64,000 nt of DNA from a virus. Below are positions 34,208-58,800 of the stretch, piece after piece; the first letter of the stretch is position 1, and each line of letters opens with the position of its first letter. Position numbers and translations under genes: made by a program. The stretch covers positions 50,214-114,213 of IMG/VR virus record IMGVR_UViG_3300029319_000010. The stretch is one strand, 5' to 3'. The notes under the pieces are model-generated. The model was not told the origin of the DNA. It saw nothing but the letters and a program-made list of their open reading frames with translations, and did no database searches.

Positions 34208-34342
34208 TTATCTACCTTGACCTCTATACTTTTTAGTATAATTGCTACCTCCCTTATTGAATGTAGTTCTACTCTTAGCATGTCTACCATGAGATTTTCT
34301 ACTATTAGGCATAAATGTAAATGTATTTTTCTTTGTCGCCAT
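34208..34342 (-). CDS. 44-aa basic protein ending KKYRGQGR (not in ORF track)
   Basis: MATKKNTFTFMPNSRKSHGRHAKSRTTFNKGGSNYTKKYRGQGR; TAATG overlap with the upstream gene. Confidence 0.8.
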   Translation of the reverse strand: MATKKNTFTFMPNSRKSHGRHAKSRTTFNKGGSNYTKKYRGQGR

Positions 34343-34722
34343 TATACTCTTGTAAAGAATGCATATACTACATTTGTAACTGCAGTATCATACTTTAATT
34401 TTGCACCTGTTCCATCTTCAACTACAAAAAATGCAAAATCACCAACTCCTAATTTAGTTAAGTTAGTGCTTCCACCATCATTAGTAACAAGTATATTACC
34501 AGTTCCAGTACCACCACCATTAGTTCCTGTATTATGAACAAATAAATATGTATCACCTTGACTTGTAGGAATAATTGATTGATTTAAAGCAGCATATGTC
34601 GTTATACCAGCTGAAGTTACTGTGCTTTCTTGTACAGTAATAACAGGGTTTAAGGTTATAGACACAGGATCACTTTGACCAGTTATAGTACCTGTAAGAT
34701 TAAATAAAGTTTGTAAATTCAT
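34342..34722 (-). CDS. Beta-rich putative virion protein, paralog A1
   Basis: YLFVHNTG...KLGVGDFAFF...KLKYD. Confidence 0.65.
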   Translation of the reverse strand: MNLQTLFNLTGTITGQSDPVSITLNPVITVQESTVTSAGITTYAALNQSIIPTSQGDTYLFVHNTGTNGGGTGTGNILVTNDGGSTNLTKLGVGDFAFFVVEDGTGAKLKYDTAVTNVVYAFFTRV

Positions 34723-34745: not shown

Positions 34746-35150
34746 TTAATGTCTTTTTAGATAAGCATAAACATATGTAGTAACTGAGTTATCATATACA
34801 GCCTTTAAACCTGCTTGTGCTATCAAAGGTATAAACATTGCATCACCAACATTTAAATGTGCTATGTTTGTTCCAGCACCGTTTGTAAGTATAACTTTAC
34901 CTCCAGTACTAAGATCTCCGTTTGCACCAACATTTCTAACATACACATACTGTGTAGAACCTCCAGCTGCAGGTGCAGCAGATGTTCCTAGTATTTCAAA
35001 AGGTGTACCATTTACGGTATTTCTTGATGCAGATGTTAGAGAAGGATTTTCAACGTCTAATTCAAAGTCAGTAAAATTAATACCTACTGAATCACTTTGA
35101 CCTGTTAAACTTCCGTTTAAACTTAAACTAAATTTTACTTTATCAGCCAT
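34746..35150 (-). CDS. Beta-rich putative virion protein, paralog A2
   Basis: YVYVRNVG...HLNVGDAMFIP...KAVYD. Confidence 0.65.
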   Translation of the reverse strand: MADKVKFSLSLNGSLTGQSDSVGINFTDFELDVENPSLTSASRNTVNGTPFEILGTSAAPAAGGSTQYVYVRNVGANGDLSTGGKVILTNGAGTNIAHLNVGDAMFIPLIAQAGLKAVYDNSVTTYVYAYLKRH

Positions 35151-35168
35151 TTTTTTAAATTTTAAATA

Positions 35169-35570
35169 TTATTGTTTCTTCTTATTAAATTTTTCAACAG
35201 ATCTACCACCAAAATAGGCACCAATCACTGTTATTAATACTAACTGTAGAAGATCAGTCCACTTTTCTTCTACGGTAAATGTTAATGCACCAGCATCAAT
35301 AAAGATCAATAACATAGTACATACTATTAAAAATATAAGAACCATAGGTCTTACATTTTTACTTAACCAACTATCAGAATTCATATCTGCCGTCCAACGG
35401 TCAGTTATATTTTTTTCCATTTGAGCTTCATGATTCATGATTAGCTCTTTTAGTTTTCTTTTAGCGTCTAGTTTTTCTTCATCTGTTGTTACTAAGTTAT
35501 CTATCACACCACCAACTGATTCTACCAAGTTGCTTCCGGCACCTGAGAAAATCTTTTTTAGTATACTCAT
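35169..35570 (-). CDS. Holin of the 3TM/GTA-release type
   Basis: DRWTADMNSDSWLSKNVRP, two TMs, GAYFGGRSVEK. Confidence 0.85.
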   Translation of the reverse strand: MSILKKIFSGAGSNLVESVGGVIDNLVTTDEEKLDAKRKLKELIMNHEAQMEKNITDRWTADMNSDSWLSKNVRPMVLIFLIVCTMLLIFIDAGALTFTVEEKWTDLLQLVLITVIGAYFGGRSVEKFNKKKQ

Positions 35571-35587
35571 ACTTTAAGTTTTTAAAT

Positions 35588-35764
35588 TTACAATACCCCG
35601 TTAGGACCAATAGAACCAACAGAACCTCCATATTTAGCAAATATGTCACTGGTACCAGTTCCATAACCACCTACCCTCGACCCTCTTTTCATTGCTTTTC
35701 TTTTTTCTCTTCTATCTTGTCTTCTATTTCTTCTATCTTGTCTTTTTTCTTTATTTCCAAACAT
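35588..35764 (-). CDS. 58-aa basic protein ending GPNGVL (not in ORF track)
   Basis: MFGNKEKRQDRRNRRQDRREKRKAMKRGSRVGGYGTGTSDIFAKYGGSVGSIGPNGVL. Confidence 0.8.
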   Translation of the reverse strand: MFGNKEKRQDRRNRRQDRREKRKAMKRGSRVGGYGTGTSDIFAKYGGSVGSIGPNGVL

Positions 35765-35783
35765 AATATTTATTTTTTAATAT

Positions 35784-35918
35784 TTATAATACCCCATTAG
35801 GTCCCACAGACTTCATTAATGGTTTGTGATATTCACCACCACACATCATCATGTGAGATCCCCCACACTTATAAGTCTTTTTCTTTTTCTTATCTTTCTT
35901 TTTCTTTTTATACATCAT
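35784..35918 (-). CDS. 44-aa poly-Lys protein ending GPNGVL (not in ORF track)
   Basis: MMYKKKKKDKKKKKTYKCGGSHMMMCGGEYHKPLMKSVGPNGVL; ATGA overlap. Confidence 0.8.
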   Translation of the reverse strand: MMYKKKKKDKKKKKTYKCGGSHMMMCGGEYHKPLMKSVGPNGVL

Positions 35919-36148
35919 AATAAACTATTTGGTCCCATGTTCATACCATATGGACAACCGCAACCCTGCACCTGTCCACCTTCAGCTTTTTTAAAGCTTT
36001 TTAATGTTTTAGCTAAGTTACATCTACGTTTTGCTTTAGTAGATGGAGGATTCTTGCAATATTCTGAGATGCTCTTTCCTTCAGCTTTAGCAGCTGCAGT
36101 CAAAGCACCTGGTTTTTTTATTGCTTTTTTTATCCAATTCTTAGCCAT
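35915..36148 (-). CDS. Small basic protein ending GPNSLL
   Basis: KNWIKKAIKKPGAL...RRCNLAKTLK. Confidence 0.75.
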   Translation of the reverse strand: MAKNWIKKAIKKPGALTAAAKAEGKSISEYCKNPPSTKAKRRCNLAKTLKSFKKAEGGQVQGCGCPYGMNMGPNSLL

Positions 36149-36151
36149 ATT

Positions 36152-36457
36152 TTAATCTTCACAAACATTTGAGTGGGAGCCATCACAGTATCCATCAGGA
36201 TCTGAAGTGGTACCACACACACATTCTTTCTTATCTTTAACAAAGAATCTATCATATGCACCTTCTTTAACTGTCTTTACAAAAAGTTCAAATTGATCTT
36301 TTGTAAACTCAGTATAGCCTTCATCTTCTCCACCAACAATTACTTTGTCAGATTCGGTTGAGATGTCAATTGCTGGACAACTCTTACAGCTAGCACAAAA
36401 AGTCATTTGTGATCTGTTTGCACTAATTTTTACATTTTTTAATCCTTCTAATTCCAT
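36152..36457 (-). CDS. Protein with C-terminal CDGSH iron-sulfur motif
   Basis: CVCGTTSDPDGYCDGSH; N-terminal CASCKSC. Confidence 0.75.
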   Translation of the reverse strand: MELEGLKNVKISANRSQMTFCASCKSCPAIDISTESDKVIVGGEDEGYTEFTKDQFELFVKTVKEGAYDRFFVKDKKECVCGTTSDPDGYCDGSHSNVCED

Positions 36458-36461
36458 TGGT

Positions 36462-36830
36462 TTATACTTTTTTAAATTTAGCGTAATTAACTACACATGC
36501 AGCAGTGTCAGAAATTAATTCTAATCCTTCTCCACCGTCACAACATAAAAACATGAAGCTACCTGGAAAGAGTTTAGCATATGTATTATTTGCCACGTCT
36601 TGAACAGTTACAAAATTGGCAAGATCTGTATTTTGAATGAATATATAAGTATCAGCAGCAGTAGTTGGAATAATCTCTGTAGCAGATGTTGGTATTGACA
36701 TAGATTTTGATTCTACGTCAGTATTATCAAAATTTACAGTGTCTAAAACTGTGCTATTTAAACTAAATATACCACTAACTGTGTCAGCAGTATTAAGGTT
36801 TAATGAGAGATTAAGTGCTTGTGTTGCCAT
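36462..36830 (-). CDS. Beta-rich putative virion protein, paralog A3
   Basis: YIFIQNTD...KLFPGSFMFL. Confidence 0.6.
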   Translation of the reverse strand: MATQALNLSLNLNTADTVSGIFSLNSTVLDTVNFDNTDVESKSMSIPTSATEIIPTTAADTYIFIQNTDLANFVTVQDVANNTYAKLFPGSFMFLCCDGGEGLELISDTAACVVNYAKFKKV

Positions 36831-37012
36831 TATATTTCAAATCCAAAGTTAAATATCATAAATCTAAATCTTTTACAATTTGGCTGTTTGTTTTCACAAA
36901 ACCAGCATGGGCAAAAGTATAGTTCTAATAATGTTAATTTACCAAGTCTAAGGTTTAATTCATAAACCTCTTTCTTATTTCCTGATTTCCAGGAATTAAT
37001 CCAATTTATCAT
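36830..37012 (-). CDS. 60-aa amphipathic beta-strand, Cys-containing protein
   Basis: First gene after the late motif at 37038. Confidence 0.65.
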   Translation of the reverse strand: MINWINSWKSGNKKEVYELNLRLGKLTLLELYFCPCWFCENKQPNCKRFRFMIFNFGFEI

Positions 37013-37037
37013 AATAAAATAATTTATGTTATATTAT

Positions 37038-37050
37038 TAATATACAAAAA
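37038..37050 (-). promoter_or_regulatory. Candidate late promoter TTTTTGTATATTA
   Basis: 25 nt upstream of ATG 37012. Confidence 0.6.
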
Positions 37051-37062
37051 AATAAGTGAAAA

Positions 37063-38136
37063 TTAAAGTATGATATAGTTTATTCCAAACTTGAAATCAT
37101 GCCAGTCACGGTTCCAGTATTTGTTATATTTTCCTTCAATAAAGATACCTAGGTTCTTATTGATCTTATAACCAAATATTAAACCACCTGAATAATCTAT
37201 CCAATTGCCACCATTAAAATTATGATATGAGTACTCACCCCCTGTATCCAAATGCACCGGTAGTAGGTTCGCCCAAGAATGAAACCATATTGTTTTAGTG
37301 TAGTGATAGTAGTCTAAACCAACTACTAGAGAATGACACCACTGAACAGGTAATGCATCCTTTTTTGATTTCACATAATCATTAAGAACTTGGGGGACCA
37401 CTACCTCTTCCCATACTTCACTACTTGTAGCCACGACTGCTCCACTAGGGTCTAAGTAGCTTATTCCTGTTGGGTCAAACCCAATTGTGTAGCCTTCCTC
37501 TAAAGCAAGGTTTGTGTAGTGTATGTTTCCATTAGATAGTACCCACTCAGCTAAAGGGTCATAACCGTAAGGTTCTGATATTCTTTGTACAGCTCCTGCA
37601 GTAACTGAAAGTTTTCTACCTATCTTTTGTCTATATCGTTGTGACGCTTCCATGTATTCTACATCAGCAAAGCCGTCTTGTAAGTACTCTATCTTAACCA
37701 CCCATCTATCTGCTAAGTATCGTAAAAAGTGATGTTGGTCTACATAAGAGTTACCTTGTTGTCTTTTATAATCTGCCTCAAACAAAAACTCAAATCCTCT
37801 AGTTCGTCCAATAGTAGCGGCATCAGAGTAAGAAGTTTCTGTACCATCTTTGAATGTATTAGCTTTATTCTCGTATCCAAATCTTTGTATCTTTCTTACA
37901 CCTACAGTAAAAGCATAGTCAAATGGAGTTTCTATTACATCGGTTTGAAGTCCATCTAATATAGAATATGTATTCTGATCTGAAATAGAGGTACCACCAT
38001 TTACTGCAGCGTAGAATGTAGAGAACTTAAAAGTTTTCTTAAGTTCTGTTTTAAACTTGCTATCCTGAGCACAACACTTTTTAGGTGCTACACAAGACAA
38101 TAATAGTAATAATATGGTTAGTAGTATTTTTTTCAC
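37063..38136 (-). CDS. Putative outer-membrane beta-barrel protein
   Basis: Signal peptide; alternating aromatic strands; C-terminal strand DFKFGINYIIL. Confidence 0.7.
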   Translation of the reverse strand: MKKILLTILLLLLSCVAPKKCCAQDSKFKTELKKTFKFSTFYAAVNGGTSISDQNTYSILDGLQTDVIETPFDYAFTVGVRKIQRFGYENKANTFKDGTETSYSDAATIGRTRGFEFLFEADYKRQQGNSYVDQHHFLRYLADRWVVKIEYLQDGFADVEYMEASQRYRQKIGRKLSVTAGAVQRISEPYGYDPLAEWVLSNGNIHYTNLALEEGYTIGFDPTGISYLDPSGAVVATSSEVWEEVVVPQVLNDYVKSKKDALPVQWCHSLVVGLDYYHYTKTIWFHSWANLLPVHLDTGGEYSYHNFNGGNWIDYSGGLIFGYKINKNLGIFIEGKYNKYWNRDWHDFKFGINYIIL

Positions 38137-41100
38137 AACTTAATTATTTTCTTGGTTATTCTTATTTTATCATATGTAATAATCAAATTATACATTCCAT
38201 CGGGATAATCTGATAAATCTATTCTTTTAATATTATCTGTTTGTATAATCTCTCCTACCATATTATATAGTTCTACATCAACATCTAGTCTTGTTTCTAT
38301 AGTAAATGTATTTGCTGTAGGATTGGGGTATACAATTATATCACTACCTGATAGCTCATCTAAGTTAACTGGCCATCCTTCTTCACAATAATTATACATA
38401 GATTGACAGGTCTCATCCCATACCTCAGTACAACAATAGTTATCTATATCTATAACCCAAGCATAACAAGGATCATTTAACCAATAAGGTTCTCCAGGTC
38501 CACCATAGCAACCAGCATCATAAAGACAAGTGGTATTATCTGGTAAGTTAACTAACGGATCATAGTTATATGCATTAGGATCAGCACATCCTTCTATTAT
38601 AACTACACAACTACCATCATCAAAACAAGCATCTTCATCATAGTTTAGTGCAGTACTATCTGTACAACCTCCAACATAACAACATGAATTATCTAAAGTA
38701 TTTGCTAACGGATCAAAGTTAAGAGCCATTGTGTCTGTACAACCATATACAAATTCTATACACGTACCATTATCTGTATTTGCTAATGGGTCATAGTTAA
38801 ATGCAGTAGAATCCATGCAACCATATACATAAGGTATACAGTTACCGCTATCAGTATTTGCAGTAGAATCATAATTAAACATGGTAGAATCCATACATCC
38901 TATAATAACACCTTCACAGCTTCCATCATCTGTATTGGCATCTGCATTATAGTTAAAAGCCTCTGGATTGGTGCAACCTAGTATAGGGTATATACATCCA
39001 TTATTAGTATTTGCTAACTCATTATAATTTAACGCAGTTGAATCTGTACAACCAATCACAACATCAATACATGAGCCGTTGTTTGTATTTGCTGTGGCAT
39101 TAAAATTAAATGCACTTGGATCTGTGCATCCATATATAGCATATATACACCCTGAATTAGTATTAGCGGTAATTTGATAATTTAAAGCTGTATCATCAGT
39201 GCATCCTATTACTACTGGTTGACATGAATCATCATCAATATTAGCATTTACATTAAAGTTAAATGCTGTTGGGTCAGTACATCCTAGAACAGGATATACA
39301 CAACCTGAGTTAGTATTAGCTAGTTGATCATAGTTTAGTGCTGTATCATCTGTACACCCTATAACAACATCAACACAACTATTGTCAGTAGTATTAGCTT
39401 GTGGATTATAGTTAAATGAATCAGGATTTGTACAACCATAAACAAATGAAATACATCCTACATTTGTGTTAGCAGTTTCATCATAATTATATGCTTCAGG
39501 ATCCGTACATCCATATGCAAACTCTATACATGATCCATCATCAGTGTTTGCATTAACATTAAAATTAAACATTGTAGGATCCATACAACCATATACAAAT
39601 GGCTCACATGGATTATTTTCATCTGCTGTATTAGCTTCTGCATTATAATTAAATGCTGTTTCATCTAAACAACCGTATATAAATGGTTCACATAAATTAT
39701 TATTTGTGTTAACATCTACACCATTTATTCCTGTTAATGGATTTCCTACTCCATCATTATCATAATCATTATATGTATAAGAGTTTGGATTTAAACAACC
39801 ATATACAAAAGGATAACATGAGCCATCATCGGTATTAGCTAGCTCATTATAGTTAAATTGATTTGACTGTGTACAACCTTCAACAACTGGTTCACAACTA
39901 TCATCATCTACATTTGCATCTGGATAGTAATTAAATGCTTCATCATCTGTACAGCCATACACTATTTCTATGCAAGAGTCATTATCTGTATTAGCGTCTT
40001 CATCATAGTTAAACGCAGCAGAGTCTGTACAACCATTAATAACAGGCTGACATGATCCTGGTTCTAGAGTATTTGCTTCTTGATCATAATTAAATGCTAA
40101 TGGGTCTGTACAACCTAATATAGTTGGTATACAAGGATCTGTTTCATCTTCAACAGCTACTTGATTAACTGTTGCTAGTTCATTATAGTTATATGCAGTT
40201 TCATCTATACAGCCGAATATAGCATATACTTCACATGTTCCATCATCAAAATCTGCTTCTATTGCATTTTGTTCTATATAATTATAATATTCAATATAAG
40301 CTGCATCAGTACAACCAGGGTTGTAATAACAGTCATTACTGCTTGTATTTGCTATTGGATCAAAGTTAACTGCTTCTAAATCTAAACAACCATAAATTTT
40401 AGGAATACAGTTATTACCACACAGAGCTTGACCTTGATATAGAAAGTTGTATTGATTATAAGAAAGTATTGGATTTGTATAAGGGTTAGTTCCACCTTCT
40501 AATATAATGTCTCCTATAGGGTTAATTATTTCAAAGCTGCATTGTTCTGTTGTTTGTTGAGATTGACCAAAAGAATAAAAATAAGCTTTAACCATTTCAC
40601 TGGTATTAAAATTAATTTCAGTTTCAAAAACTGTTTGATCACTTTGTAATGTAAAAGGCCCCCACCACTGATCACCTTGTGTAACTACTAAAAATGAACC
40701 TGCCCAACCATTATCAGCCCAATCCGTCAATCTTAATGTATTTGTACAATTAGGGTTTGATAGTTGTGTATTTGCATCAGGGTTAAAATTAAAAGCATCA
40801 GGGTTTATACAGCCAAATATTCTTTCTGTTTCACATGATCCGTCATCTTCATTAGCATAAGGGTTAAACTCTAAATACTCATTGTTTGTACATCCTTGTA
40901 CAGTCTCTGGTGCACATGGTGTTACTTGACCAACATCAATTATAAGCTCTCCAAAATCACCTATACCTTCTGATATTGTATCACCACATTCTGTATATAC
41001 CGCCCAAGTACCATCTATACCACCCCATTGAGCTCCACCAAGACCATCTCCATATGAGTCTTGTAACCAAAACATTATGTTAGTATTGTCATCAATGCAA

Positions 41101-42299
41101 GTTTGATATTCTACTGTAGTACCTACTGGCACACCACAATACGTTGTGTTATCATTTACTTCTGCTAAAGGTGTTCCATCACCATACTGATCATATATTA
41201 TCCAACTAGTTTCACAGCCATACTGATCCACCATTATTTCAACTGTAACTAAAGTTTTACCTGCTGTGCATGTTATATCTCCTCCATTACATGAACCATC
41301 GTCTGTAGTTGCTGCAGGGTTATAACTAGCTGCTTCTGGGTCTGTACAACCTGGTATGTTAATACAAGATCCATCATCAATACCTGCTTCTTCATTATAG
41401 TTTAATGCATTTGGGTCTGTACATCCATAAATAAAAATACAAGGATCTACCTGCCATGTTTCTCCTACTACAGCATTTACATTTACACCTGGAGTATTTG
41501 TATTAGGGTTTCCATCTGCTTCTGCTTGTGTTGATACTACATAGATTAATGTTGTGGGTGAATTACAACCTCCACCATCAAAAGCTACAGCATCTATAAA
41601 CCATTGTTGTCCATTATCACCAACATATATTCTTGCACCAATTTGTAGAATATCTTGATATTGTAAATAAAATTCGGGATCAACTCCAAAGTGAGTATTA
41701 GTAAAGGATACCAAGTTACATGTTGAACCTGGTGTTATAATGCCTGTTGGTATATCTGCTGCAAGTGGATTATAATTAAATGCAAACTCATTTATACATC
41801 CATAAATATATGTACAACTACCATCATTAATTAAGGCATCTTCGTTAAAGTTTTCTGCTAATTCATCTGTACAACCTTGTAAAGGAGGAGCACAAGGTGC
41901 TATAGTTAATGTATCTACTAAAGATATTGGTCCGCTAGGTTCTGTTGTTAGTACTGAATCTTCATAAAAAGCACCTTCTACATACATTAAACTATCTTGA
42001 CAAGCATTACTTATTGAAAACCATCCATTATTACCACCCCAAAAAGATCCAGCTAAACCATCACCATAAGCATCATTTAATGAAATAATATATTCACCTG
42101 CTGGTATACTTATTATAGTATCATGTAAAAATTCTGGCAATAAAAATGGTTCATTTACAGCTATTGCAGCACCGCTAATATCATAAAGTTCCCATGATGT
42201 TTCACCAGGATATTGGTCTGTTTGTAACTGTATATGTATCCAAGATTCTTGAGTAAATACTAGTATAGGAACTAGTAATAAGAATATTAGTTTTTTCAT
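38133..42299 (-). CDS. T9SS type A sorting-domain protein with about 29 GCTDxxAxNY repeats
   Basis: Sec signal MKKLIFLLLVPILVFT-Q; C-terminal IVYPNP...LYNMVGE...IDLSDYPDGMYNLII...TKKIIKL. Confidence 0.9.
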   Translation of the reverse strand: MKKLIFLLLVPILVFTQESWIHIQLQTDQYPGETSWELYDISGAAIAVNEPFLLPEFLHDTIISIPAGEYIISLNDAYGDGLAGSFWGGNNGWFSISNACQDSLMYVEGAFYEDSVLTTEPSGPISLVDTLTIAPCAPPLQGCTDELAENFNEDALINDGSCTYIYGCINEFAFNYNPLAADIPTGIITPGSTCNLVSFTNTHFGVDPEFYLQYQDILQIGARIYVGDNGQQWFIDAVAFDGGGCNSPTTLIYVVSTQAEADGNPNTNTPGVNVNAVVGETWQVDPCIFIYGCTDPNALNYNEEAGIDDGSCINIPGCTDPEAASYNPAATTDDGSCNGGDITCTAGKTLVTVEIMVDQYGCETSWIIYDQYGDGTPLAEVNDNTTYCGVPVGTTVEYQTCIDDNTNIMFWLQDSYGDGLGGAQWGGIDGTWAVYTECGDTISEGIGDFGELIIDVGQVTPCAPETVQGCTNNEYLEFNPYANEDDGSCETERIFGCINPDAFNFNPDANTQLSNPNCTNTLRLTDWADNGWAGSFLVVTQGDQWWGPFTLQSDQTVFETEINFNTSEMVKAYFYSFGQSQQTTEQCSFEIINPIGDIILEGGTNPYTNPILSYNQYNFLYQGQALCGNNCIPKIYGCLDLEAVNFDPIANTSSNDCYYNPGCTDAAYIEYYNYIEQNAIEADFDDGTCEVYAIFGCIDETAYNYNELATVNQVAVEDETDPCIPTILGCTDPLAFNYDQEANTLEPGSCQPVINGCTDSAAFNYDEDANTDNDSCIEIVYGCTDDEAFNYYPDANVDDDSCEPVVEGCTQSNQFNYNELANTDDGSCYPFVYGCLNPNSYTYNDYDNDGVGNPLTGINGVDVNTNNNLCEPFIYGCLDETAFNYNAEANTADENNPCEPFVYGCMDPTMFNFNVNANTDDGSCIEFAYGCTDPEAYNYDETANTNVGCISFVYGCTNPDSFNYNPQANTTDNSCVDVVIGCTDDTALNYDQLANTNSGCVYPVLGCTDPTAFNFNVNANIDDDSCQPVVIGCTDDTALNYQITANTNSGCIYAIYGCTDPSAFNFNATANTNNGSCIDVVIGCTDSTALNYNELANTNNGCIYPILGCTNPEAFNYNADANTDDGSCEGVIIGCMDSTMFNYDSTANTDSGNCIPYVYGCMDSTAFNYDPLANTDNGTCIEFVYGCTDTMALNFDPLANTLDNSCCYVGGCTDSTALNYDEDACFDDGSCVVIIEGCADPNAYNYDPLVNLPDNTTCLYDAGCYGGPGEPYWLNDPCYAWVIDIDNYCCTEVWDETCQSMYNYCEEGWPVNLDELSGSDIIVYPNPTANTFTIETRLDVDVELYNMVGEIIQTDNIKRIDLSDYPDGMYNLIITYDKIRITKKIIKL

Positions 42300-42302
42300 A
42301 TT

Positions 42303-42626
42303 TTAAAATTTATTAGCAAGTATTTCGTCAATATATGCTTGCACTTCTTTTGCATCTGCTTTCATAGTAAATGATATATCTGCTTGATATCTTTTTACTT
42401 CTTCACCATCATCAAATATTATAATTGTAGGAACTACTGCTATATTATGTTTTTCTTGTTGTTTTGGTTTGTCTGCTATATCTACATATGCTATATCACA
42501 ATCAACTAAATCATTACACCATTCTACATCATTTGTAGAGTTCCATCCTGCATTATATTGAACAACTTCTACCTGTCCATAGGCAATAGAAGACATCAAA
42601 CAAAATATAAAGAATATATTTTTCAT
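42303..42626 (-). CDS. Exported thioredoxin-fold protein lacking canonical CxxC
   Basis: Signal peptide ending AYG-Q; VVQYNAGWN, YVDI, IAVVPTIIIFDDGEEVKRY. Confidence 0.75.
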   Translation of the reverse strand: MKNIFFIFCLMSSIAYGQVEVVQYNAGWNSTNDVEWCNDLVDCDIAYVDIADKPKQQEKHNIAVVPTIIIFDDGEEVKRYQADISFTMKADAKEVQAYIDEILANKF

Positions 42627-42904
42627 TTTAATCTATCTATTTTATCTTCTATACGTTTTAAATCTTCTTTTATTTCCTCAACATCATCTTGAGTATTTTG
42701 AATTGTTAAACGTATATTTTTATCTTTCATATCAAACTCCATTCTTGTTACATCTGGATTTGGTGGTACAGGTAGCTCTTTAGCCTCAGCAATATCTGCC
42801 TGTAAAACAAACCACATACTTACTAAAGTAGTAATTAAAAAACCTATTCCACCTAGTGTCTTTAGGCTTATTTCAAATTTGGAATCTTCTGATATTTCTT
42901 TCAT
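42623..42904 (-). CDS. Single-TM coiled-coil membrane protein
   Basis: TM LGGIGFLITTLVSMWFVL, then PVPP and a coiled coil. Confidence 0.7.
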   Translation of the reverse strand: MKEISEDSKFEISLKTLGGIGFLITTLVSMWFVLQADIAEAKELPVPPNPDVTRMEFDMKDKNIRLTIQNTQDDVEEIKEDLKRIEDKIDRLK

Positions 42905-43308
42905 TTTGTACCTCCTTTTCTCATATAACCCTGGCCTGAAAATATAATCATCTTGTCTTTGTTTGCACCTCCTCTTTTCTTTGGTGATTTCTTAGCACCA
43001 GGATTTGACGTTTTTAATTTTCTTACATTATTTGTCATTGAAGTCAACTTATTCTGATTTTCTAGAAGTTTATTTTGACTCTCAATTAGTTGGTTATTGA
43101 GTTGAAGTTGTTTAATAATCTCTTTTTGATTATTCATTATAGATTGTTGATTAAGCATTGCTTGTTCATCAGGGTTAGGAACTTTATTAGGATCCATTTG
43201 AGGAACATCTACAAAATCAGATACAGCGGGTCTACCAATCCTAGATACCTTTCTAGGACCGGCATGATTATTAGGACCTCCCGCTCTATATTGTCTAATT
43301 CTACGCAT
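42901..43308 (-). CDS. Basic coiled-coil protein with YRAGG and MRKGG motifs
   Basis: Start moved to MRRIRQYRAGG (43308). Confidence 0.7.
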   Translation of the reverse strand: MRRIRQYRAGGPNNHAGPRKVSRIGRPAVSDFVDVPQMDPNKVPNPDEQAMLNQQSIMNNQKEIIKQLQLNNQLIESQNKLLENQNKLTSMTNNVRKLKTSNPGAKKSPKKRGGANKDKMIIFSGQGYMRKGGTK

Positions 43309-43312
43309 ATTA

Positions 43313-43696
43313 CTATGAAGTTGTATCCCAGTCAATTACAATTGATCCACAAACTACTCCAAGATTAGTTGCATTAGGAGCAATTTCAAGAAATCTTGCA
43401 TTTGCTGGATTAGTAATTTCAGTTGTACCTGCTCTAGCTAAAAATTCTGTAATTGCTCTTTGCAATTTTAATGCTTCACCAGTTGTTGTTATTGATGCTT
43501 TACAATCTTTTCTAGTATGTCCTAACCAAGTACCACTATGACCAGCATCTAGAAAAAAGATTTCAAGAGTATTTGCATCTGCTATTCTCATATTAACATT
43601 ATTTCCTGATCCAACTGGATAGGATATAATATCTTCTGTGTCATCAGCATATGTCATAATCCATTTTGGTAATGCTGCTAAATTTAATTCTGCCAT
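43313..43696 (-). CDS. Putative virion protein, paralog B1
   Basis: MAELNLAALPKWIM...LDAGH...ARAGTTEITN. Confidence 0.65.
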   Translation of the reverse strand: MAELNLAALPKWIMTYADDTEDIISYPVGSGNNVNMRIADANTLEIFFLDAGHSGTWLGHTRKDCKASITTTGEALKLQRAITEFLARAGTTEITNPANARFLEIAPNATNLGVVCGSIVIDWDTTS

Positions 43697-43722
43697 GTTT
43701 AAAAAATTTATTAAGTTAATTA

Positions 43723-44148
43723 TTATGCTATTATATCTTCTACTACCTCTAAGTCAGTAACAGTTGCTCCTAAAAAAGTATTTACATCACTTAAAACATC
43801 TCCATCAAGATATATCATTCTGTTATTATCTGTATTAGTAATTTCTGTAGATCCTGCTCTAGCTACCCACCTTGTAAAATTTCTTACTATATTAAGTCTA
43901 GTAGCATCGTCATCAGCATGTGTAAATACAATTGCCATATCACGTCTTGCACCAACAACACCTTCACTATCATGACCTGCATCCAATATACACACTAATG
44001 TTTTAGTTGGTGCACCTCCTGTTCCAGTATTACAAGATTTAAAAAATACTCTTGCACCCAAACCAATAGGTACTGATACACTTTTATTTTCTCCTGTGTC
44101 TTTAGCCATAACCCACTTGGGTAGTATTGCTTTGTTTAATTCTGCCAT
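43723..44148 (-). CDS. Putative virion protein, paralog B2
   Basis: MAELNKAILPKWVM...LDAGH...ARAGSTEITN. Confidence 0.65.
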   Translation of the reverse strand: MAELNKAILPKWVMAKDTGENKSVSVPIGLGARVFFKSCNTGTGGAPTKTLVCILDAGHDSEGVVGARRDMAIVFTHADDDATRLNIVRNFTRWVARAGSTEITNTDNNRMIYLDGDVLSDVNTFLGATVTDLEVVEDIIA

Positions 44149-44190
44149 ATTTAAAATATTTTAATTGTTTATATTCTTGTTTGTTATATT

Positions 44191-44691
44191 TTATAAAACC
44201 CTATTAGGTCCTGCTCCTCCTCTTGCTCCTTTTGCTCTGTTATAAGCTACAAGTTCAGTTGCTAAATTATTAGATCTTGTTGTATTTCTACTTTGTGCAT
44301 CTGTTCTTGCACGTAATGCTACATTATAACGGCTTAGATCTGCTGGGTCTAATGTATAATAAGCCAGTCTATCAGCAGTAACCGCACCTCTAGTGCCCGG
44401 ACTTACACGTCTTGCACTTCTATATATAGCAGGATTAGGTGCATCTGGAACAGTCTCTGGTGCAAATTTACTTTGTCTTGTACTAGGTTTTATTAAAACA
44501 TCTCTATTAATAGGATTTCTTGTACCTTTTGTTTGAAATTTTGCTGAAAACTTACTTGTAGGAAGTGGGGTTTCTGGTTTAACCAATAACTGTGCAGATA
44601 AATTATTACTTGGCGTAATACTGTTTAATGCATCGTTTGTTCTTTGACCATGAGATTGTTTCTCTTGGTCTGCTCTTTTTCTTGAAGCCAT
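44191..44691 (-). CDS. Basic, probably disordered protein ending GPNRVL
   Basis: First gene after the late motif at 44738. Confidence 0.75.
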   Translation of the reverse strand: MASRKRADQEKQSHGQRTNDALNSITPSNNLSAQLLVKPETPLPTSKFSAKFQTKGTRNPINRDVLIKPSTRQSKFAPETVPDAPNPAIYRSARRVSPGTRGAVTADRLAYYTLDPADLSRYNVALRARTDAQSRNTTRSNNLATELVAYNRAKGARGGAGPNRVL

Positions 44692-44714
44692 AACTTTAAT
44701 TAATTAATTATTAT

Positions 44715-44750
44715 TATATTTGCTATTCTTATATAGATAATATACAAAAA
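44715..44750. promoter_or_regulatory. Overlapping promoters: plus TATATTTG (44715-44722) and minus late motif (44738-44750)
   Basis: Direct motif matches between divergent genes. Confidence 0.6.
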
Positions 44751-44762
44751 AAACTTTGAAAT

Positions 44763-44948
44763 ATGAAAACACATGAATTTAAAATAGAATTTCTAACAGA
44801 TAGTCCACTATTAGGACTACATATGACACAATTTGATAGAAAGAATAATGATACCTTAAGATGGAATCCAACCATCAAAATCTCTTTAGGTTTTTTATTT
44901 TTTCATTTTACTTACATAAATACAGATTATACAATAGAAAAGGATTAA
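44763..44948 (+). CDS. 61-aa hypothetical beta-strand protein
   Basis: ORF track. Confidence 0.6.
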   Translation: MKTHEFKIEFLTDSPLLGLHMTQFDRKNNDTLRWNPTIKISLGFLFFHFTYINTDYTIEKD

Positions 44949-45016
44949 ATTTTCACTATATTATTATTACCTGACTATCTCAGGTATCTCAATTATTAAC
45001 TACTAAATACAATAAA

Positions 45017-52866: not shown

Positions 52867-55800
52867 CTATTTACCTTTACATTTTTTAATATCCTCCATA
52901 AATTCCTCTTTTGTATCATATAGTTGTTTAGGATCTTGATACAAAGCTATCAAATCTTCTGCACTTCTCACACCTAAACCACCTAAATTTTCTGCTACAG
53001 CAATATTTTGTTTTTCTGACTCTGTAAGTTTATCATACTCTTCAGTCAAAAACTTAACATCCTCATTTTGTTCACCGGGTATTTCAAGAGCATCTTCTTT
53101 TAATCCTGTTAAATCTATTTCTAACTCTTCTTGTGCTTCTTCTAATTCCTCTGCAGTAAATTCAAGATCTTTAAATGGATCAAGCCCCTCTTGCTCTTCA
53201 GTTATTTTTACTTCTTTTGGTTTAACATCTGCCCCTTTCTCATTTTTAAAACCTTGCTCAGTGGCACTTATAGCATCACCTAATTCTCCTAACTGATTAG
53301 TATCTTCTTCAGCTAGTCCTTCTACTAAGCTAGTAGGATCAGTTTCCATAAACTCTTGCATAGGTATCTTATTTTCTAATCTGTCTTTTCTATTTTCCAT
53401 CAATAAGCTAAACGCAGGTCTTTTACTTGTAAATACATCACCTATATCTGTTGCACTATCTACACCTAAAGATTCAGTTTCAGTGTATATAGCATTAACA
53501 CCTAATATTTCACTAACTCTACCATCTGTTTCTGATTTTAAATTATACATTAAAGTTTGTTGATCAGCACCTCTATCTAAAATCTTTGGTACAGTAACAC
53601 TTGTTAACACTTCTGTAATAAACGTTGTCTCTTTTCCTGACCCAGTTTTAATTTTTCTAACTAATGGGAATTTAATTAAGTCATAATCTTTATTATTGAT
53701 TGTAAGATTAACAACCTCAAAACCTTTTCCTTTTAATTGTTTTTTATTTAAGCTCAATCTCTTTTTAAAAGCCTCAACACTAAGTTGTTTACCATATTGT
53801 TTTTTCTTTTGAGCTTCATACTTTCTTATAAGTCTACCTTTGAGTTTTCTATCTTGAGCAGGGCCAAGTTTTGCAAATAAGTTTACATAAGTTTCACCTA
53901 GACCTGAATCAAATTGAACTGCTCCACCTTGAACTGCTGCAGGTTGTTTTTCTGCAACTTCTTCTGTAGTCTTCTTTACAAGAGTTAAATAACCTTTTAG
54001 TCTTGAATCTGTATTAGACATTGCATCATAATACTCTTTAGTATATCCTGTTAAAATAGAAAATTTTGATGAAAAGTTTTTTACACTTTTTTGTTTCTTA
54101 GTTAATCTTATTATATCAGTAATTTCATATGGATTACCCTCTGCACCTATTCGTATAATATGACCCTTCTTTGCATTAGCATATAGTTTATTCTCTGTAG
54201 ATATTGCTTTTATCTGACCAGAAAATAATCCCTCTTCTAATGATATGTCTTTTTTATATCTACTATCTTCAGCAGCTATATTATAGTTTAAACTTGACTC
54301 ATCTTTAAATTCTTTTAATGCTAATCTTGCATTACCTGCCCTACTAACTTTTAAATTAAAACTATTTTTATGTGATAGCAATATACTTTTTACAACTTGA
54401 TTAGTTATTTCATTTAACGTTGCTCCAAAAACTTCTCTATATCTTGTATCATCTAATGTTTCTGATTTTAAAAGACTATGTGCAGGGCTTACAGCACTAA
54501 TGATATCCTTCAACATTACAGGAGGCATAACATTTATAAAAGAATCTCTTGCAAAAGTAAAGCCATCTTTAACTAATAAATAGTTTAATAGATGGTTCAT
54601 GTCTTGATAGTTTTGTTCATCTTTTGTATAGATGTTTGCTATATCACGTCCTATCTCTATCATCATTGCATCTGGAACTGTCTTCCAAGTATTTGCAACA
54701 ATCCTATCAATCATTTGCTTATTATTAGGATTATCATATGTAATAGGTTTTAAGAAGTCATATAAGAAGTAACTATCAGGATTATTTTTCATAAGCCTTC
54801 TCATTACATCCATAATAATTAATGGTGTATTCTCACTTGCTTCAGGATATATAATACCATTATCTAGTGTTACTAACCTTTTTCCATCACCTCTAGTTTT
54901 TAGTCTATGTATAAAAGACTTTGCTGTTAAATATGATATTATACTTTTCTTTATTTCACCTCTACTCTCAACAGATCTTGCAGCACCTTTATAGTGAGAA
55001 AGAACTATATCAGTTATTTGTTCAAAAGGTTTTGTTTTAGAAATAAACACAGAAGGAGTAACTTTATTAATCATACTTGCCATTCTATATAATGTTGTCA
55101 AATATGGTTGTGTTTTAACTCCACCAATATCATTTATCTGACCAAAGAACTTTCTAAAGTCTACAGGTACACTACTATTTTTAAAATCACTATCTGATTT
55201 ATTTATATCTAAGTCATCTAAAGATTTTAAAGATCTTTCTAGGTCTAAAGTTGATGATCCTATACCATCTATAAAGTTTGGTAGAGCAATAAACTTATTT
55301 GTTGCTCGTTTAATTCTTTCTAAAGTTAAAAATTGTTGTAAAACTTTAAGCTCTGCTTCTTCTAATTTTTCATATGCTTCTGAGCCAACCTCAACTTCAC
55401 CCGTAAACGTTTTACTTAAAGTTTTTACACCTCCAACATACTCCCATGCATTTAATTGTTCTGTTAAAACTTCTGTTGACATACGTAAAGTAGCAGCATT
55501 TTCTAGAAGGAATGGTTTATCGGTTGTCATTGCTTCTATCTTTTTTTCTATAATTTTAGAAATATTAGCAGGTTCATTATTTCTAATTTTACTACTATAC
55601 ATTCTATATACATCTTTAATTGTAGGATGATTAACCATCATTACAGGAATTCTAATTGGCATACCAAGTGCTACACCATTTGCTACTGTAGATAGTGCTT
55701 GTTTATTAAGACCTAAGAAATATGCTATATTGTATTTAGCATTGTCTGTCATCCCTGTGATCTCTGCAGATCCCATAAACGCTCTTCTTATAAGTTCATT

Positions 55801-58800
55801 TTGATTTTTTGGATCTAAAATATAAGGGTTTGTAAATTCATTATAGTTTTGACCATCTATAACTAGTTTGCCAAACTGTGATCCATCTCTTAAATCTAAA
55901 CCATATTCTGAAAATATATGAAAGTTCAAGTTTTGTGGAACTATAGAACCAATGTTCTTTGCACCATCATGAAAACTATCATATATCCTTAGTATATCAT
56001 TTAAGAAATCTGTATCAGTTGAAGAATCAAAAATTCTTTTTCTATTAGCAAAAGACTTAACTTGACTTTCTAAGTTGGTAAGTAAATCAGTTAATGGATC
56101 TATAGAAGTAGGCTCATTAGCAACACCAACACTACTATATTCAGAAGGTGCTTCCATTCTTGGATTAGACTGTAATGCTATTTTAGTATCTAGAAGTATA
56201 TTATTATTTGCTGCCTCATAAGGCTCTATTTTAAATTTATTTTTATAATCAATATACTCTTCTTTTGACTTTGGTTTATTTAACTGATGCAGTGCTCCCA
56301 AAATTTCTTCTTGACTTATATCTACTTTTATATATTTAGGCCCAAACTCATCTTCCTTTTTATTATATGTAAAGTCCTCTGCCTTTGCAAATCTTAATTT
56401 TGATTCTTTTGCATTCCATCCTGGTACTGTCTGATCTTCATTTTCTCTAAGCCACTCAGTCCACATAACTTCTACCTCATCCTCTTCATATAAAAGTTTG
56501 TATTCTTCTTCAAGTGCTCCTGGATTTTTTCTTTTATACTTTCTAAGAGCAAGATTATATATAGATCCTGACCTTTGCACTTCTCTTTCTACAAAGTTTA
56601 AGTACTCTTCATATAATGTATCCTCTGATTTATTATTTACACCCTTAGTTGATCTATTAGGATCTACTGGCACACCATCACCATACTCAATAATTTTACC
56701 ACCCTTTACATATACATCTTTTTCTTGATTATATACTTGATCAATATCAAGGTCACGTCCAGAACGTAGCATATAAGATTGAGAAATCATACCTGATGAT
56801 GCCATCCATGGTGGTAAAAAGTCTACTATCTTACCATAAGCAGCAGAGTGAGCATCCTGTGCAGGTACAGTAGCAGTATATAAATCACTTACTTCATCTG
56901 GTATAACTTCATCATTTTTTATTTGACTCATGTAAGATCTTTGAGGTGCAACAATCATTTCATGATATCTTAAATCACTCTTTGATCCATCTTTATTTAA
57001 CTTAACTACACTACCTCTTAAACCATCTATAAATAAATCTCCTACTTCTAATGGCTTATCTAAAACTTGATCTAGATATTCTTTTGTAATGTTATCTTCT
57101 CTTTTTAAGTTCAAAGGCTGACCTGTTCTTGTTAATCTTAAAGCTTCTCTTTGATCTGATGGTTTTAATTCATAACCTCTAACAACCTCCCAAGCTACAG
57201 GTATACCATCTTCTATAAGTTTTACTCTCTTAACTCTAGCTCCTAATGCATTTGTAATTAATGTTGTATTAAAACCAGGAACTCTTTCATTAAATGTACT
57301 ATTAAAGAATGTTAAAAATAATTGTTCAAACTTTGTTGAAGTTAAACTATTATTAAGATCAGGTGAGTTTTTAAATAACTCTACCATTTGATTATTTGCC
57401 TGAGATGCCTCTAAAGATGATATTGCATAGTCTTTAAAAGTTTGTAAATCTGGTGTCATTTTACCTAGATCTCTAGCTTCTTCAAGTGCTACAATAGCTT
57501 CATCTAAAGTAAATATTAAATTCATTTTAGATAGTAAAGAAGACTTAGCTTTTTCTCCCTCTACTTTATTATATATACCTCTTAGTTTTCCTAAAGTCAT
57601 TGACTCACCAAATACATTTATATCTGCACTATTATCTTGCTCAGATGAAACTATAATTTTCATTTGTTTAAGATTGCTAATTGTATTTTTACCAGCAACT
57701 TGTTTTTGTTGTTGATACATAAAGTTTGCATCAAGATATGTAATTGAGTTAGTTAAATCTTTAGGACTTAATGTTTCACTTAGTGTAGAAATATCTTCAA
57801 AGCTTAATACTTTACTCTTTTCTGCTTTTGATGCAGAAGCAGGAGTAGCTAAAGCAACAACTTCTTGATTAGCTTCTATTGCTTTTAAGTTTTCATGAAT
57901 AGCAAAAAACTCTGGGTTTGTTATAGATGGAGTTGTAAAGTTTGTAGAAGGATCTCCAACTATCTGATCTGATAAAAACATAATAGACATTTTATCATAA
58001 ATCTTACCATCACCATAAGCAAACTTTTCACTTTGAACCTGACCACCTAAAGAAAGTAAGCCATTCACTCCTTCAGATCCTAAAATTTCACTAACGTTAA
58101 TAATTTCTCCTTGCTCAATTCTGTTTATTAATTCTAGTTTAGCTTTAGAAGTACCAACCCCATAGTTTAAATACTTTGCACCTTTCATTGTTGCAAATAT
58201 CAAACCATCAGTTTCTTCCATACCTTTAAATTTTCTATCTTCAAAAATAACTTGAGCAATAGAATTTTTACCCATAGTATGAGTAATACCAAACTCAGGT
58301 GCTATAGTTTCAAAAGCTACATCTCTACCAGTTATTGCAAACTGTTTATTTCTTTTGTTCTCAACTGTTGCATCTGCTAAACTTTTATTTGTATTACCAA
58401 GTAAAGCTTTATTTATTGTAGACGCATTTAAATAAGCATTAAAAAATATTTGTCTTAGGTTATGTTGTTGTTGACCCGCAACTAAATTTAAATCTTGAGT
58501 AACAGTGCCTGCTACAGGATCACCTGCTGATGTATTTAAATTACCAGAGATATTACTAGTTACTAGCTTTAAAATATCCTCATTTACTATCATATCATTA
58601 AACATAGTAAACTTATTCTCAAGTGTTTCCATCACCTGATATTGTAATTGATCTATAAGTATACCTGGAGTTTCTTCAACTGCCTCAGTAAAAGTATATA
58701 GTTCATTTGTTTCTGGATTTTTTGTTACAAGTAAATCCTCAACTCCTGTTATAATAGAATCATCTTCTATAAATTCATCAGTAGATTCTGTAAATAAACT

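What the first reader, a model, noticed from the sequence alone, without database searches (positions are those of the whole stretch)
37063..42904. Phage-encoded envelope cassette: T9SS cargo, OM beta-barrel, exported thioredoxin fold and inner-membrane protein
Seen: four consecutive minus-strand genes inside a phage late-type operon, coupled by ATGA/GTGA overlaps (42901-42904, 42623-42626, 38133-38136) and one 3-nt gap. They encode a single-TM coiled-coil protein, an exported Trx-fold protein, a 1388-aa protein with Sec signal, about 29 two-Cys GCTDxxAxNY repeats and an intact type A T9SS C-terminal domain, and a beta-barrel-like protein. The three exported proteins have Gln at the apparent cleavage site (AYG-Q, VFT-Q, CCA-Q). 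Established: the type A CTD routes proteins through the Bacteroidota T9SS, and Gln at +1 is typical of Bacteroidota SPI substrates. Inference: the phage uses host Sec/BAM/T9SS to remodel the infected-cell surface (receptor masking, superinfection exclusion, adhesion, or occupying the T9SS), with the Trx fold helping to fold the disulfide-rich cargo and the barrel possibly acting as a PorV-like shuttle or anchor. I know of no characterised phage system of this kind.
Basis: partly seen in the sequence, partly recalled or inferred. Interest (0 to 1): 0.9.

Follow-up and report, generated by a model that had tools for sequence, protein, structure and literature searches.

The report
Phage envelope module with T9SS fibre
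An uncultured marine crAss-like phage of Bacteroidota carries four genes found only in phages (an inner-membrane helix protein, an inactive periplasmic thioredoxin, a cysteine-rich fibre addressed to the host's type IX secretion system and an outer-membrane barrel), a set that is common in ocean viral DNA, lies beside lysis genes, and has never been tested.

Summary
Four overlap-coupled minus-strand genes encode a 93-aa TM/coiled-coil protein, a 107-aa exported thioredoxin fold, a 1388-aa signal-peptide protein with 26-29 two-Cys repeats and a type A T9SS domain above the curated cut-offs, and a 357-aa predicted outer-membrane barrel. The genome is a complete ~114-kb crAss-like phage.

- The CTD passes the HMM.
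- Contigs from independent metagenomes bridge every junction.
- All four genes co-occur in 60 of 80 viral loci, as cyclic permutations of one order. They also occur in T4-like phages.

- The thioredoxin has no CxxC motif in any of the 18 members aligned.
- The barrel shows no specific likeness to PorV or PorP.
- About half of the family's cargoes (38 of 70) carry a short tail instead of a recognisable CTD.
- In relatives the set sits among holin and endolysin genes.
- I found barrel and cargo body only in viral DNA.

Best reading (0.45): the set displays a binding fibre on the infected cell late in infection. Main rival (0.3): the three small proteins act in lysis. Phage T9SS cargo has a precedent (Bellas 2020). 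This scan has already found this module on other genomes.

The parts
42623..42904 (-). TMcc: 93-aa protein with a short acidic N-terminus, one TM helix (about residues 19-37) and a ~55-residue periplasmic helical/coiled-coil tail
   Evidence: It is 60-79% identical across phages, with 25 invariant columns. At least 581 IMG/VR contigs encode a relative. No Pfam, PHROG, NCBIfam, PADLOC or PDB relative was found.
42303..42626 (-). Exported thioredoxin-fold protein, 107 aa, without the CxxC site (redox-dead)
   Evidence: The family profile hits solved thioredoxins at E 1e-9. The cis-Pro motif (VPT) is kept, and WCGPC is replaced by W-N-x-x-N in 18 of 18 members.
38133..42299 (-). Cargo: 1388-aa protein with a signal peptide. 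It has beta-sandwich modules at the N-terminal end, a stalk of Cys repeats, a six-Cys knob and a type A T9SS CTD.
38520..40112 (-). Main run of 25-26-aa two-Cys repeats (GCTDxxAxNY...DDGSC), residues ~730-1260. Further copies are scattered from residue 143.
   Evidence: The repeat number varies between near-identical phages: L004 has a 994-aa cargo inside flanks that are about 90-96% identical in DNA. Joints in metagenome contigs point the same way.
38385..38510 (-). Invariant six-Cys knob, PYWLNDxCYAWVIxVDxYCCxxxWDxxCQxxYxxC (residues ~1264-1305). It is the most conserved part of the cargo.
   Evidence: Alignment A3. It is present in both tail classes.
38136..38333 (-). Type A T9SS C-terminal sorting domain (residues 1323-1388)
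   Evidence: TIGR04183 at 48.4 bits and PF18962 at 44.3 bits. Five of five divergent class-A relatives also pass.
37063..38136 (-). 357-aa outer-membrane beta-barrel with a leader, a possible lipobox (LLLSC) and an OMP-type C-terminal motif (GINYIIL; F in most relatives)
   Evidence: There are more than 3600 metagenome relatives and 98 IMG/VR contigs. No Pfam family matches any of 30 members.
36830..37012 (-). 60-aa conserved small ORF (MNWINSW...FNFGFEI) that travels with the module
   Evidence: It is found in 21 of 80 loci with the window's copy as query. It forms an 18-locus neighbour family, usually just after the barrel. Function unknown.
35169..35570 (-). Candidate holin, 133 aa (3-TM GTA-type), 1.5 kb downstream on the same strand
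   Evidence: PF11351 at 25.6 bits against a cut-off of 24.8, over the full profile. It is present in 51 of 80 loci. In several loci it follows the module directly.

Best explanation
This is a phage-only, horizontally mobile envelope module. Its four products go to four layers of the infected Bacteroidota cell.
- TMcc sits in the inner membrane with a helical tail in the periplasm.
- The redox-dead thioredoxin fold is periplasmic.
- The barrel is inserted into the outer membrane by the host BAM machinery.
- The cargo crosses the inner membrane by Sec and, in this phage, the outer membrane by the host T9SS through its type A CTD.

The cargo is a non-enzymatic fibre. It has beta-sandwich binding modules at the tip, a disulfide-stapled repeat stalk of variable length, an invariant six-Cys knob and then the sorting tail.

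I infer that the three small conserved proteins form a platform that receives or holds the cargo's conserved C-terminal end. Late in infection, together with the lysis genes, the infected cell and its debris would then become coated with a fibre chosen by the phage. The purpose could be adhesion or shielding of the surface against further phage adsorption.

Shown: the gene structures, the CTD, the barrel fold, the dead thioredoxin, the conserved linkage and the restriction to phages. Inferred: the localisations, physical contact between the parts, the timing and the purpose.
For: - CTD above curated cut-offs, and hydrophobic leaders followed by Gln.
- Barrel model and OMP-type C-terminal motif.
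- All four genes lie on one strand in 60 of 80 loci fetched with the barrel, as three cyclic permutations of one order. The other 20 loci are mostly cut by contig ends.
- Of 36 loci fetched with TMcc that have full flanks, 36 have the thioredoxin and the barrel. 32 have a giant cargo. The other 4 have a 181-249-aa exported protein with a short tail beside the trio.
- The most conserved part of the cargo is its C-terminal knob. The N-terminal modules are swapped, some for MAM domains, and the repeat number varies.
- The cargo core folds as beta-sandwiches. The best match is a Ca-dependent carbohydrate-binding module at Z 6.3, and no enzyme fold appears.
- The barrel is found in GTDB genomes only on 6 MAG contigs of scattered taxa. 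The cargo body was not found in 150 Flavobacteriaceae genomes; only the CTD matched.
- The same set occurs in crAss-like phages, T4-like phages and a third, ~45-55-kb type.
Against: - No experiment or transcript data exist for any member.
- 38 of 70 classified cargoes lack a recognisable T9SS domain. T9SS therefore cannot be the common route unless the short tail is a divergent signal, and hhalign gives that only 18.6% probability.
- In relatives the set is embedded in lysis cassettes: 3-TM holin, 2-TM holin-like protein, M15 peptidase and a small lipoprotein. This fits a lysis role for the trio equally well.
- The thioredoxin has no catalytic cysteines.
- The barrel has no specific likeness to the known T9SS barrels.
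- The host is unknown.
Confidence: 0.45

Rival explanations
1. The trio (TMcc, dead thioredoxin, barrel) is part of the lysis machinery. It would be an envelope-spanning device that helps break or time the breaking of the Bacteroidota outer membrane, playing a spanin-like or lysis-control role. The cargo would be a separate late gene that merely travels with it.
For: - TMcc has i-spanin-like topology: an N-terminal TM helix and a periplasmic coiled coil.
- The holin homologue lies within 5 kb downstream in 34 of 60 complete modules, often abutting it. An M15 endolysin is found in 15 loci, a DUF5675-like protein in 10 and a 2-TM holin-like gene in 9 of the barrel-fetched loci (36 of the 80 TMcc-fetched loci). 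A 63-aa proline-rich lipoprotein lies between cargo and barrel in 7 loci.
- No canonical spanin pair or small lipoprotein gene was seen in this block.
- The trio is far more conserved than the cargo.
Against: - The periplasmic part of TMcc is only ~55 residues, much shorter than in known i-spanins.
- Known o-spanins are small lipoproteins, not 350-aa barrels.
- The slot next to the trio was filled by a tail-bearing exported protein in every locus with full flanks. That argues for a functional tie to the cargo.
- No spanin family in PHROGs or Pfam matches.
Confidence: 0.3
2. The trio is itself a small phage-encoded export or anchoring device for proteins carrying the short C-terminal tail. The type A CTD would be a variant tail that additionally, or instead, uses the host T9SS.
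For: - 38 of 70 cargoes end in a ~45-aa tail (ITDLLGRP...LLFYIYDDGTVEKK) with no T9SS HMM hit at E up to 10.
- Mini-cargoes of 181-249 aa keep only a leader, one module and such a tail.
- The tail class switches within each gene order.
Against: - A 12-14-strand barrel is too narrow to pass a folded, disulfide-rich protein.
- No energy source is evident.
- The short tail loosely resembles the last strands of the CTD, so it may still be a T9SS signal.
Confidence: 0.12
3. The cargo is a virion or tail-fibre protein whose CTD-like domain is just an Ig-like fold. Alternatively, the stretch is bacterial DNA or an assembly chimera.
For: Ig-like domains are common on virions. The cargo is large, repetitive and variable, like receptor-binding proteins.
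Against: - All three exported proteins have cleavable-type leaders.
- The CTD scores well above the curated cut-offs.
- The module lies outside the structural block.
- Independent contigs from four other studies bridge all junctions, and IMG/VR contigs are colinear.
- The family is absent from isolate genomes.
Confidence: 0.04

Closest known systems
Phage-encoded T9SS type A cargo genes of 'Cryophage' (Bellas et al. 2020, Nat Commun, PMC7468147); T9SS sorting domains near crAss-BACON ORFs (PMC6949934)
   Same: In both, a phage of Bacteroidota encodes proteins with a type A T9SS sorting domain. The cargo genes are highly variable between phage variants. The authors also guessed at secretion through the host system and a role in competition or superinfection.
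   Different: Those cargoes are single genes (glycoside hydrolases, a PA14 protein) in flexible islands. No accompanying barrel, membrane protein or thioredoxin fold is described. Here the cargo is a non-enzymatic Cys-repeat fibre locked into a conserved four-gene set that lies beside lysis genes.
sprC-sprD-sprB-sprF operon of Flavobacterium johnsoniae: a T9SS adhesin followed by its cognate PorP/SprF-family barrel (from my own knowledge of the gliding-motility literature)
   Same: A large repetitive surface protein secreted by T9SS is followed directly by a gene for an outer-membrane barrel of about 350 aa, with small accessory genes in the same operon.
   Different: SprB has a type B CTD and SprF belongs to PF11751. 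Here the CTD is type A or a short tail. None of 30 barrel family members matches any Pfam family in more than one member, and PF11751 is not among the matches.
Two-component spanins (lambda Rz/Rz1) in holin-endolysin-spanin lysis cassettes
   Same: TMcc has the i-spanin layout of an N-terminal TM helix and a periplasmic coiled coil. The set lies beside holin and endolysin genes. Some relatives have a small proline-rich lipoprotein gene inside the set.
   Different: TMcc is much shorter. Its constant outer-membrane neighbour is a barrel, not a small lipoprotein. A thioredoxin fold and a large exported protein have no counterpart in spanin systems.
Phage-encoded outer-membrane proteins: T5 Llp and phi80/N15 Cor receptor blockers, lambda Lom/Bor, cyanophage OMP-like barrels (PF24653; lead)
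   Same: A phage places its own protein in the host outer membrane. In the cases of Llp and Cor, this stops further adsorption to infected cells and debris.
   Different: Those are single proteins. None comes with a T9SS cargo, a membrane coiled coil or a dead thioredoxin. The barrel here does not match PF24653.

Membership tests
T9SS type A cargo (TIGR04183 / PF18962) | C-terminal ~70-aa sorting domain scoring above the curated HMM cut-off | tested here: met
   TIGR04183 scores 48.4 bits (cut-off 23) and PF18962 scores 44.3 bits (cut-off 27), over residues 1323-1387.
T9SS type A cargo (TIGR04183 / PF18962) | N-terminal Sec signal peptide | tested here: met
   By inspection only, as no SignalP was available. 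The leader reads MKKLIFLLLVPILVFT|QESW. Leaders are also seen in the full-length relatives.
T9SS type A cargo (TIGR04183 / PF18962) | Secretion that depends on a host T9SS, with removal of the CTD | not testable with these tools
   The host is unknown and uncultured. Bacteroidota is inferred from the crAss-like terminase, from the CTD and from Gln after the leaders.
T9SS type A cargo, as a property of the whole cargo family | All family members carry the sorting domain | tested here: not met
   32 cargoes are class A and 38 have the short tail. Five of five short tails have no T9SS HMM hit at E up to 10. hhalign of tail against CTD gives 18.6% probability.
PorV (T9SS shuttle, FadL-like 14-strand barrel) | Specific fold or sequence likeness to PorV | tested here: inconclusive
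   PorV chain 6h3i_F scores Z 8.3 (rmsd 4.9, 171 aligned). That is below generic 12-strand barrels at Z 10-10.8. No NCBIfam or Pfam hit.
PorP/SprF family (PF11751) | Match to the family HMM | tested here: not met
   None of the 30 barrel family members gave that family at E up to 1.
Thioredoxin | Thioredoxin fold | tested here: met
   The profile of 18 members hits solved thioredoxins at E 1e-9. The single sequence scores 22.6 bits, just under the Pfam cut-off of 23.5.
Thioredoxin | CxxC redox site | tested here: not met
   The site reads W-N-x-x-N in 18 of 18 members. The two Cys of the window's copy are not conserved.
Two-component spanin | i-spanin: N-terminal TM helix plus a periplasmic coiled coil long enough to span the periplasm | tested here: inconclusive
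   The topology fits, but the periplasmic part is only ~55 residues. There is no PHROG or Pfam spanin hit.
Two-component spanin | o-spanin: small outer-membrane lipoprotein gene adjacent to or embedded in the i-spanin gene | tested here: not met
   No such gene lies beside TMcc in this window. A 63-aa lipoprotein lies between cargo and barrel in 7 related loci.
GTA-type 3-TM holin (PF11351), for the 133-aa neighbour | HMM match above cut-off over the full profile | tested here: met
   25.6 bits against a cut-off of 24.8, profile positions 2-123 of 123. The margin is narrow.
crAss-like phages (Crassvirales in the wide sense), for the genome | crAss-type terminase, portal and capsid genes, and giant late proteins | tested here: met
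   phrog_6681, phrog_6547 and phrog_11589 all match. The best terminase relatives are crAss-like phages at ~25% identity. There are ORFs of 1918 to more than 5000 aa.

The most novel reading that the evidence does not exclude
The barrel, the membrane coiled coil and the dead thioredoxin form a previously unknown phage-encoded envelope machine. It would be exchanged between unrelated phage lineages. It would recognise a short C-terminal tail (of which the T9SS CTD is one form) and either mount exchangeable binding proteins on the dying cell or couple their release to lysis.
Probability: 0.3. Interest if true: 0.85.

Novelty: new variant of a known kind. Interest (0 to 1): 0.62.

Why it matters
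Phages of marine Bacteroidota are major agents of carbon turnover after algal blooms, yet how they handle the host envelope and how they lyse it is almost unknown. This gene set occurs only in phages and is present in hundreds of viral contigs and thousands of metagenome proteins. It is shared by crAss-like and T4-like phages at 60-75% identity even though their core genes are unrelated. That implies strong selection and exchange.

If it displays binding fibres, it is a new way for a virus to reprogram the surface of its host. If it acts in lysis, it fills the gap of the missing spanins in these phages. Either answer can be tested by expression in Flavobacterium johnsoniae.

Tried and rejected
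- The complex prediction of the barrel (residues 24-357) with the cargo's C-terminal 134 residues gave no verdict: score 0.00 in two runs, controls not run. It counts neither for nor against binding.
- tblastn of cargo, barrel and TMcc against 50,697 GenBank phage records found nothing.
- The first genome-contig scan with the single barrel sequence found nothing. The alignment A1 was too diverse to make patterns.
- PADLOC gave no hit for any of six proteins, so nothing ties the set to known defence systems.
- PHROGs gave no hit for the four proteins.
- The TMcc profile has no relative among solved structures.
- The cargo has no solved relative by sequence.
- The sigma-70 promoter and terminator scan did not exceed shuffled controls. 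It says nothing about operon limits in a Bacteroidota phage.
- No RNA holder was listed among the sequencing runs.
- No M15, DUF5675-like or small-lipoprotein homologue was found in this genome by tblastn. Its endolysin was not located.
- The idea that some relatives carry the trio with no cargo at all was checked. In the four candidate loci a small exported protein with a short tail lies beside the trio.
Full report
**Observation**

- The 1388-aa protein has a hydrophobic leader followed by Gln and contains 79 Cys. A strict pattern finds 26 two-Cys repeats of period 25-26 aa, and a few degenerate copies raise the count towards 29.
- Its C-terminal domain scores 48.4 bits on TIGR04183 (cut-off 23) and 44.3 bits on PF18962 (cut-off 27).
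- The 107-aa protein scores just under the Pfam thioredoxin cut-off on its own.
- The 93-aa and 357-aa proteins match no family in Pfam, NCBIfam, PHROGs or PADLOC.

**Genome context**

- The window is the last 64 kb of a single 114,213-bp contig. The first 30 bases recur ~128 bp from the end, so the genome is complete and circularly closed. One giant ORF runs across the junction.
- Terminase, portal and major capsid genes match crAss-type PHROG families. The nearest terminases in GenBank are crAss-like phages of Bacteroides, Flavobacterium and Cellulophaga at about 25% identity.
- The plus-strand block at 8-34 kb holds replication genes.
- The cassette lies in a minus-strand block of small genes between the replication module and a ribonucleotide reductase gene.
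- The 133-aa product of 35169-35570, 1.5 kb downstream on the same strand, matches the 3-TM GTA-type holin family PF11351 over the full profile. The score is 25.6 bits against a cut-off of 24.8.

**Assembly**

The assembly is not chimeric.
- Three IMG/VR contigs are colinear with the window across the cassette. L004 is about 87-96% identical in DNA, and L008 and L028 about 82-91%.
- Logan contigs from four further studies were laid on 35000-45000. One run alone has pieces spanning 36828-38490, 38461-40571, 41294-42411 and 42385-43303. These cross every gene junction.
- The only systematic difference inside the cargo is repeat number. L004 has a 994-aa cargo between similar flanks.

**Linkage of the four genes**

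The barrel has more than 3600 relatives in marine metagenomes and 98 IMG/VR contigs. ORFs of the 80 fetched loci were compared with the window's proteins:
- The cargo is present in 72 loci, the thioredoxin in 64 and TMcc in 63.
- 60 loci have all four genes on one strand. The other 20 are mostly cut by contig ends.
- The orders are TMcc-Trx-cargo-barrel (28 loci), barrel-TMcc-Trx-cargo (23) and cargo-barrel-TMcc-Trx (9). These are three cyclic permutations of one order.

A second search started from TMcc.
- It found at least 581 viral contigs.
- Of the 36 fetched loci with full 8-kb flanks, all have the thioredoxin and the barrel, and 32 have a large cargo.
- In the remaining four, a 181-249-aa exported protein with a short C-terminal tail lies beside the trio. 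One of these consists of a leader, a single copy of the cargo's DSYGDG beta-sandwich module and the tail.

**Restriction to phages and mobility**

- No GenBank phage record has the barrel, TMcc or cargo.
- In one genome per 185,579 prokaryote species, the barrel occurs on only six contigs. All six are in MAGs of unrelated taxa: Parvibaculum, a Nitrosopelagicus archaeon, Winogradskyella, Rickettsiales and Maricaulis. One of them is a 120-kb contig. I read these as binned phage DNA.
- In 150 Flavobacteriaceae genomes only the CTD of the cargo finds matches, not its body.
- The set is not confined to crAss-like phages. Two contigs of 173 kb and 158 kb, rated 100% and 97% complete, carry a T4-type capsid gene (PF07068, 256 bits) and gave no match to this phage's terminase. 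They have all four genes, with TMcc 69-72% and the barrel 62% identical to the window's.
- Three contigs of 42-55 kb with the set gave neither marker.
- The module therefore moves between unrelated phage lineages.

**The parts**

*Barrel.* With a 30-member alignment it folds as a 12-14-strand barrel with a helical insertion (pLDDT 76, pTM 0.71).
- Its matches are generic outer-membrane barrels: NanC, autotransporter domains and Tsx at Z about 10.
- PorV scores Z 8.3 and is not distinctive.
- The family ends in an OMP-type motif (GINYxIF), and a subset including this copy has a possible lipobox.
- None of the 30 members matches PorP/SprF or any other Pfam family in more than one member.

*Thioredoxin.*
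- The fold is secure with a family profile (E 1e-9 to solved thioredoxins), and the cis-Pro motif is kept.
- The WCGPC site is W-N-x-x-N in all 18 members, so it cannot exchange disulfides.

*TMcc.* It is the most conserved part and has no known relative.

*Cargo.*
- Its core (residues 340-640) folds as two beta-sandwiches joined by Cys repeats (pLDDT 76).
- The best match is a calcium-dependent carbohydrate-binding module at Z 6.3.
- All matches are below Z 8 and none is an enzyme.
- Relatives swap the N-terminal modules, some for MAM domains.
- The most conserved cargo segment is a six-Cys knob just before the tail.

**Two tail classes**

- Of 70 cargoes that could be classified, 32 end in a type A CTD. 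All five divergent ones tested pass TIGR04183.
- The other 38 end in a ~45-aa tail (ITDLLGRP...LLFYIYDDGTVEKK). It gave no T9SS hit at E up to 10 in five of five tests.
- Profile comparison aligns the short tail with the last strands of the CTD, but at only 18.6% probability.
- T9SS use is therefore well supported for this phage, but not for the family as a whole.

**Neighbours**

Around the 60 complete modules, the recurrent same-strand neighbours are:
- the 3-TM holin (34 loci, always downstream, sometimes abutting the module);
- an M15-type peptidase (15 loci);
- a DUF5675-like protein (10 loci);
- a 2-TM holin-like protein;
- a coiled-coil protein with a C-terminal TM helix;
- a 63-aa proline-rich lipoprotein between cargo and barrel (7 loci);
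- a family of ~130-aa small proteins.

This genome has the 3-TM holin and a 2-TM holin-like gene at 4851-5042. Neither of the two peptidase-like neighbours (M15, DUF5675-like) was detected.

**Interpretation**

Conserved linkage in permuted orders, four different envelope addresses and a cargo whose constant part is its C-terminal end all point one way. I think the three small proteins most likely act on or with that end, and the module most likely puts an exchangeable binding fibre on the infected cell late in infection (0.45).

The lysis-cassette setting supports a rival in which the trio acts in outer-membrane disruption or lysis control and the cargo is a fellow traveller (0.3). The short-tail class allows a bolder reading, that the trio is itself a small export or anchoring device (0.12). 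A virion role or an artefact is unlikely (0.04).

The one complex prediction I could run gave no verdict.

**Known work and novelty**

- Phage-encoded T9SS cargo was reported for 'Cryophage' by Bellas et al. 2020 (PMC7468147, read). T9SS sorting domains were noted near crAss-BACON ORFs (PMC6949934).
- Searches of the paper library found no description of the four-gene set, or of a phage barrel, coiled-coil and dead-thioredoxin trio.
- This scan has already noted the same module on several other phage genomes, with similar verdicts.
- Added here: the cyclic-permutation pattern; the two tail classes with counts; the mini-cargoes that fill the apparently empty slot; the invariant knob; the direct test that T4-like and crAss-like phages share the set; and read-level support for this assembly.

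Noticed in passing
G000 1-128 and 114086-114213 (window 63873-64000); window 52867-63999 continuing into L001:1-4660: The contig ends repeat ~128 bp, so the genome is closed. One giant minus-strand ORF runs across the junction: 3710 aa in the window plus about 1550 aa at the contig start. It is one of at least eight ORFs of 950-2700 aa or more in the late block.
   Followed up: partly
window 35582-35782: Contigs from four independent metagenome studies skip 199 bp here. This removes the 58-aa very basic ORF at 35588-35764, so that ORF is dispensable or is an insertion in this strain.
   Followed up: no
window 34342-34722, 34746-35150, 36462-36830 (and 43313-43696, 43723-44148): There are two sets of paralogous small proteins of 122-141 aa with no family match. 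The first set belongs to a family found near the module in 46 of 60 loci, often in several copies.
   Followed up: partly
window 4851-5042 (-): A second holin-like gene: a ~64-aa two-TM protein, 55% identical to the small two-TM protein that abuts the module in many relatives. The endolysin of this genome was not located.
   Followed up: partly
L105:5979-6647, L116:6454-7203, L118:5385-6047, L151:8637-9182: Mini-cargoes beside the trio. Three combine an LDL-receptor-class-A-like Cys motif (DCxDGSDE) with an acidic T/E/V/I-rich repeat and a short tail. The fourth is a single DSYGDG beta-sandwich plus tail.
   Followed up: partly
L084-L089 (GTDB MAG contigs): Phage contigs carrying the barrel are binned into MAGs named Parvibaculum, Candidatus Nitrosopelagicus, Winogradskyella, Rickettsiales (a 120-kb contig) and Maricaulis. 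This looks like bin contamination by phage DNA.
   Followed up: no
L019 and L021 (one IMG/VR contig of 245,646 bp): One viral contig carries the module twice, about 119 kb apart. This looks like a two-copy concatemer assembly of a ~120-kb genome.
   Followed up: no
window 36830-37012 (-): A 60-aa ORF (MNWINSW...FRFMIFNFGFEI) with Cys pairs is conserved next to the module in some 20 loci. It has no family match.
   Followed up: partly
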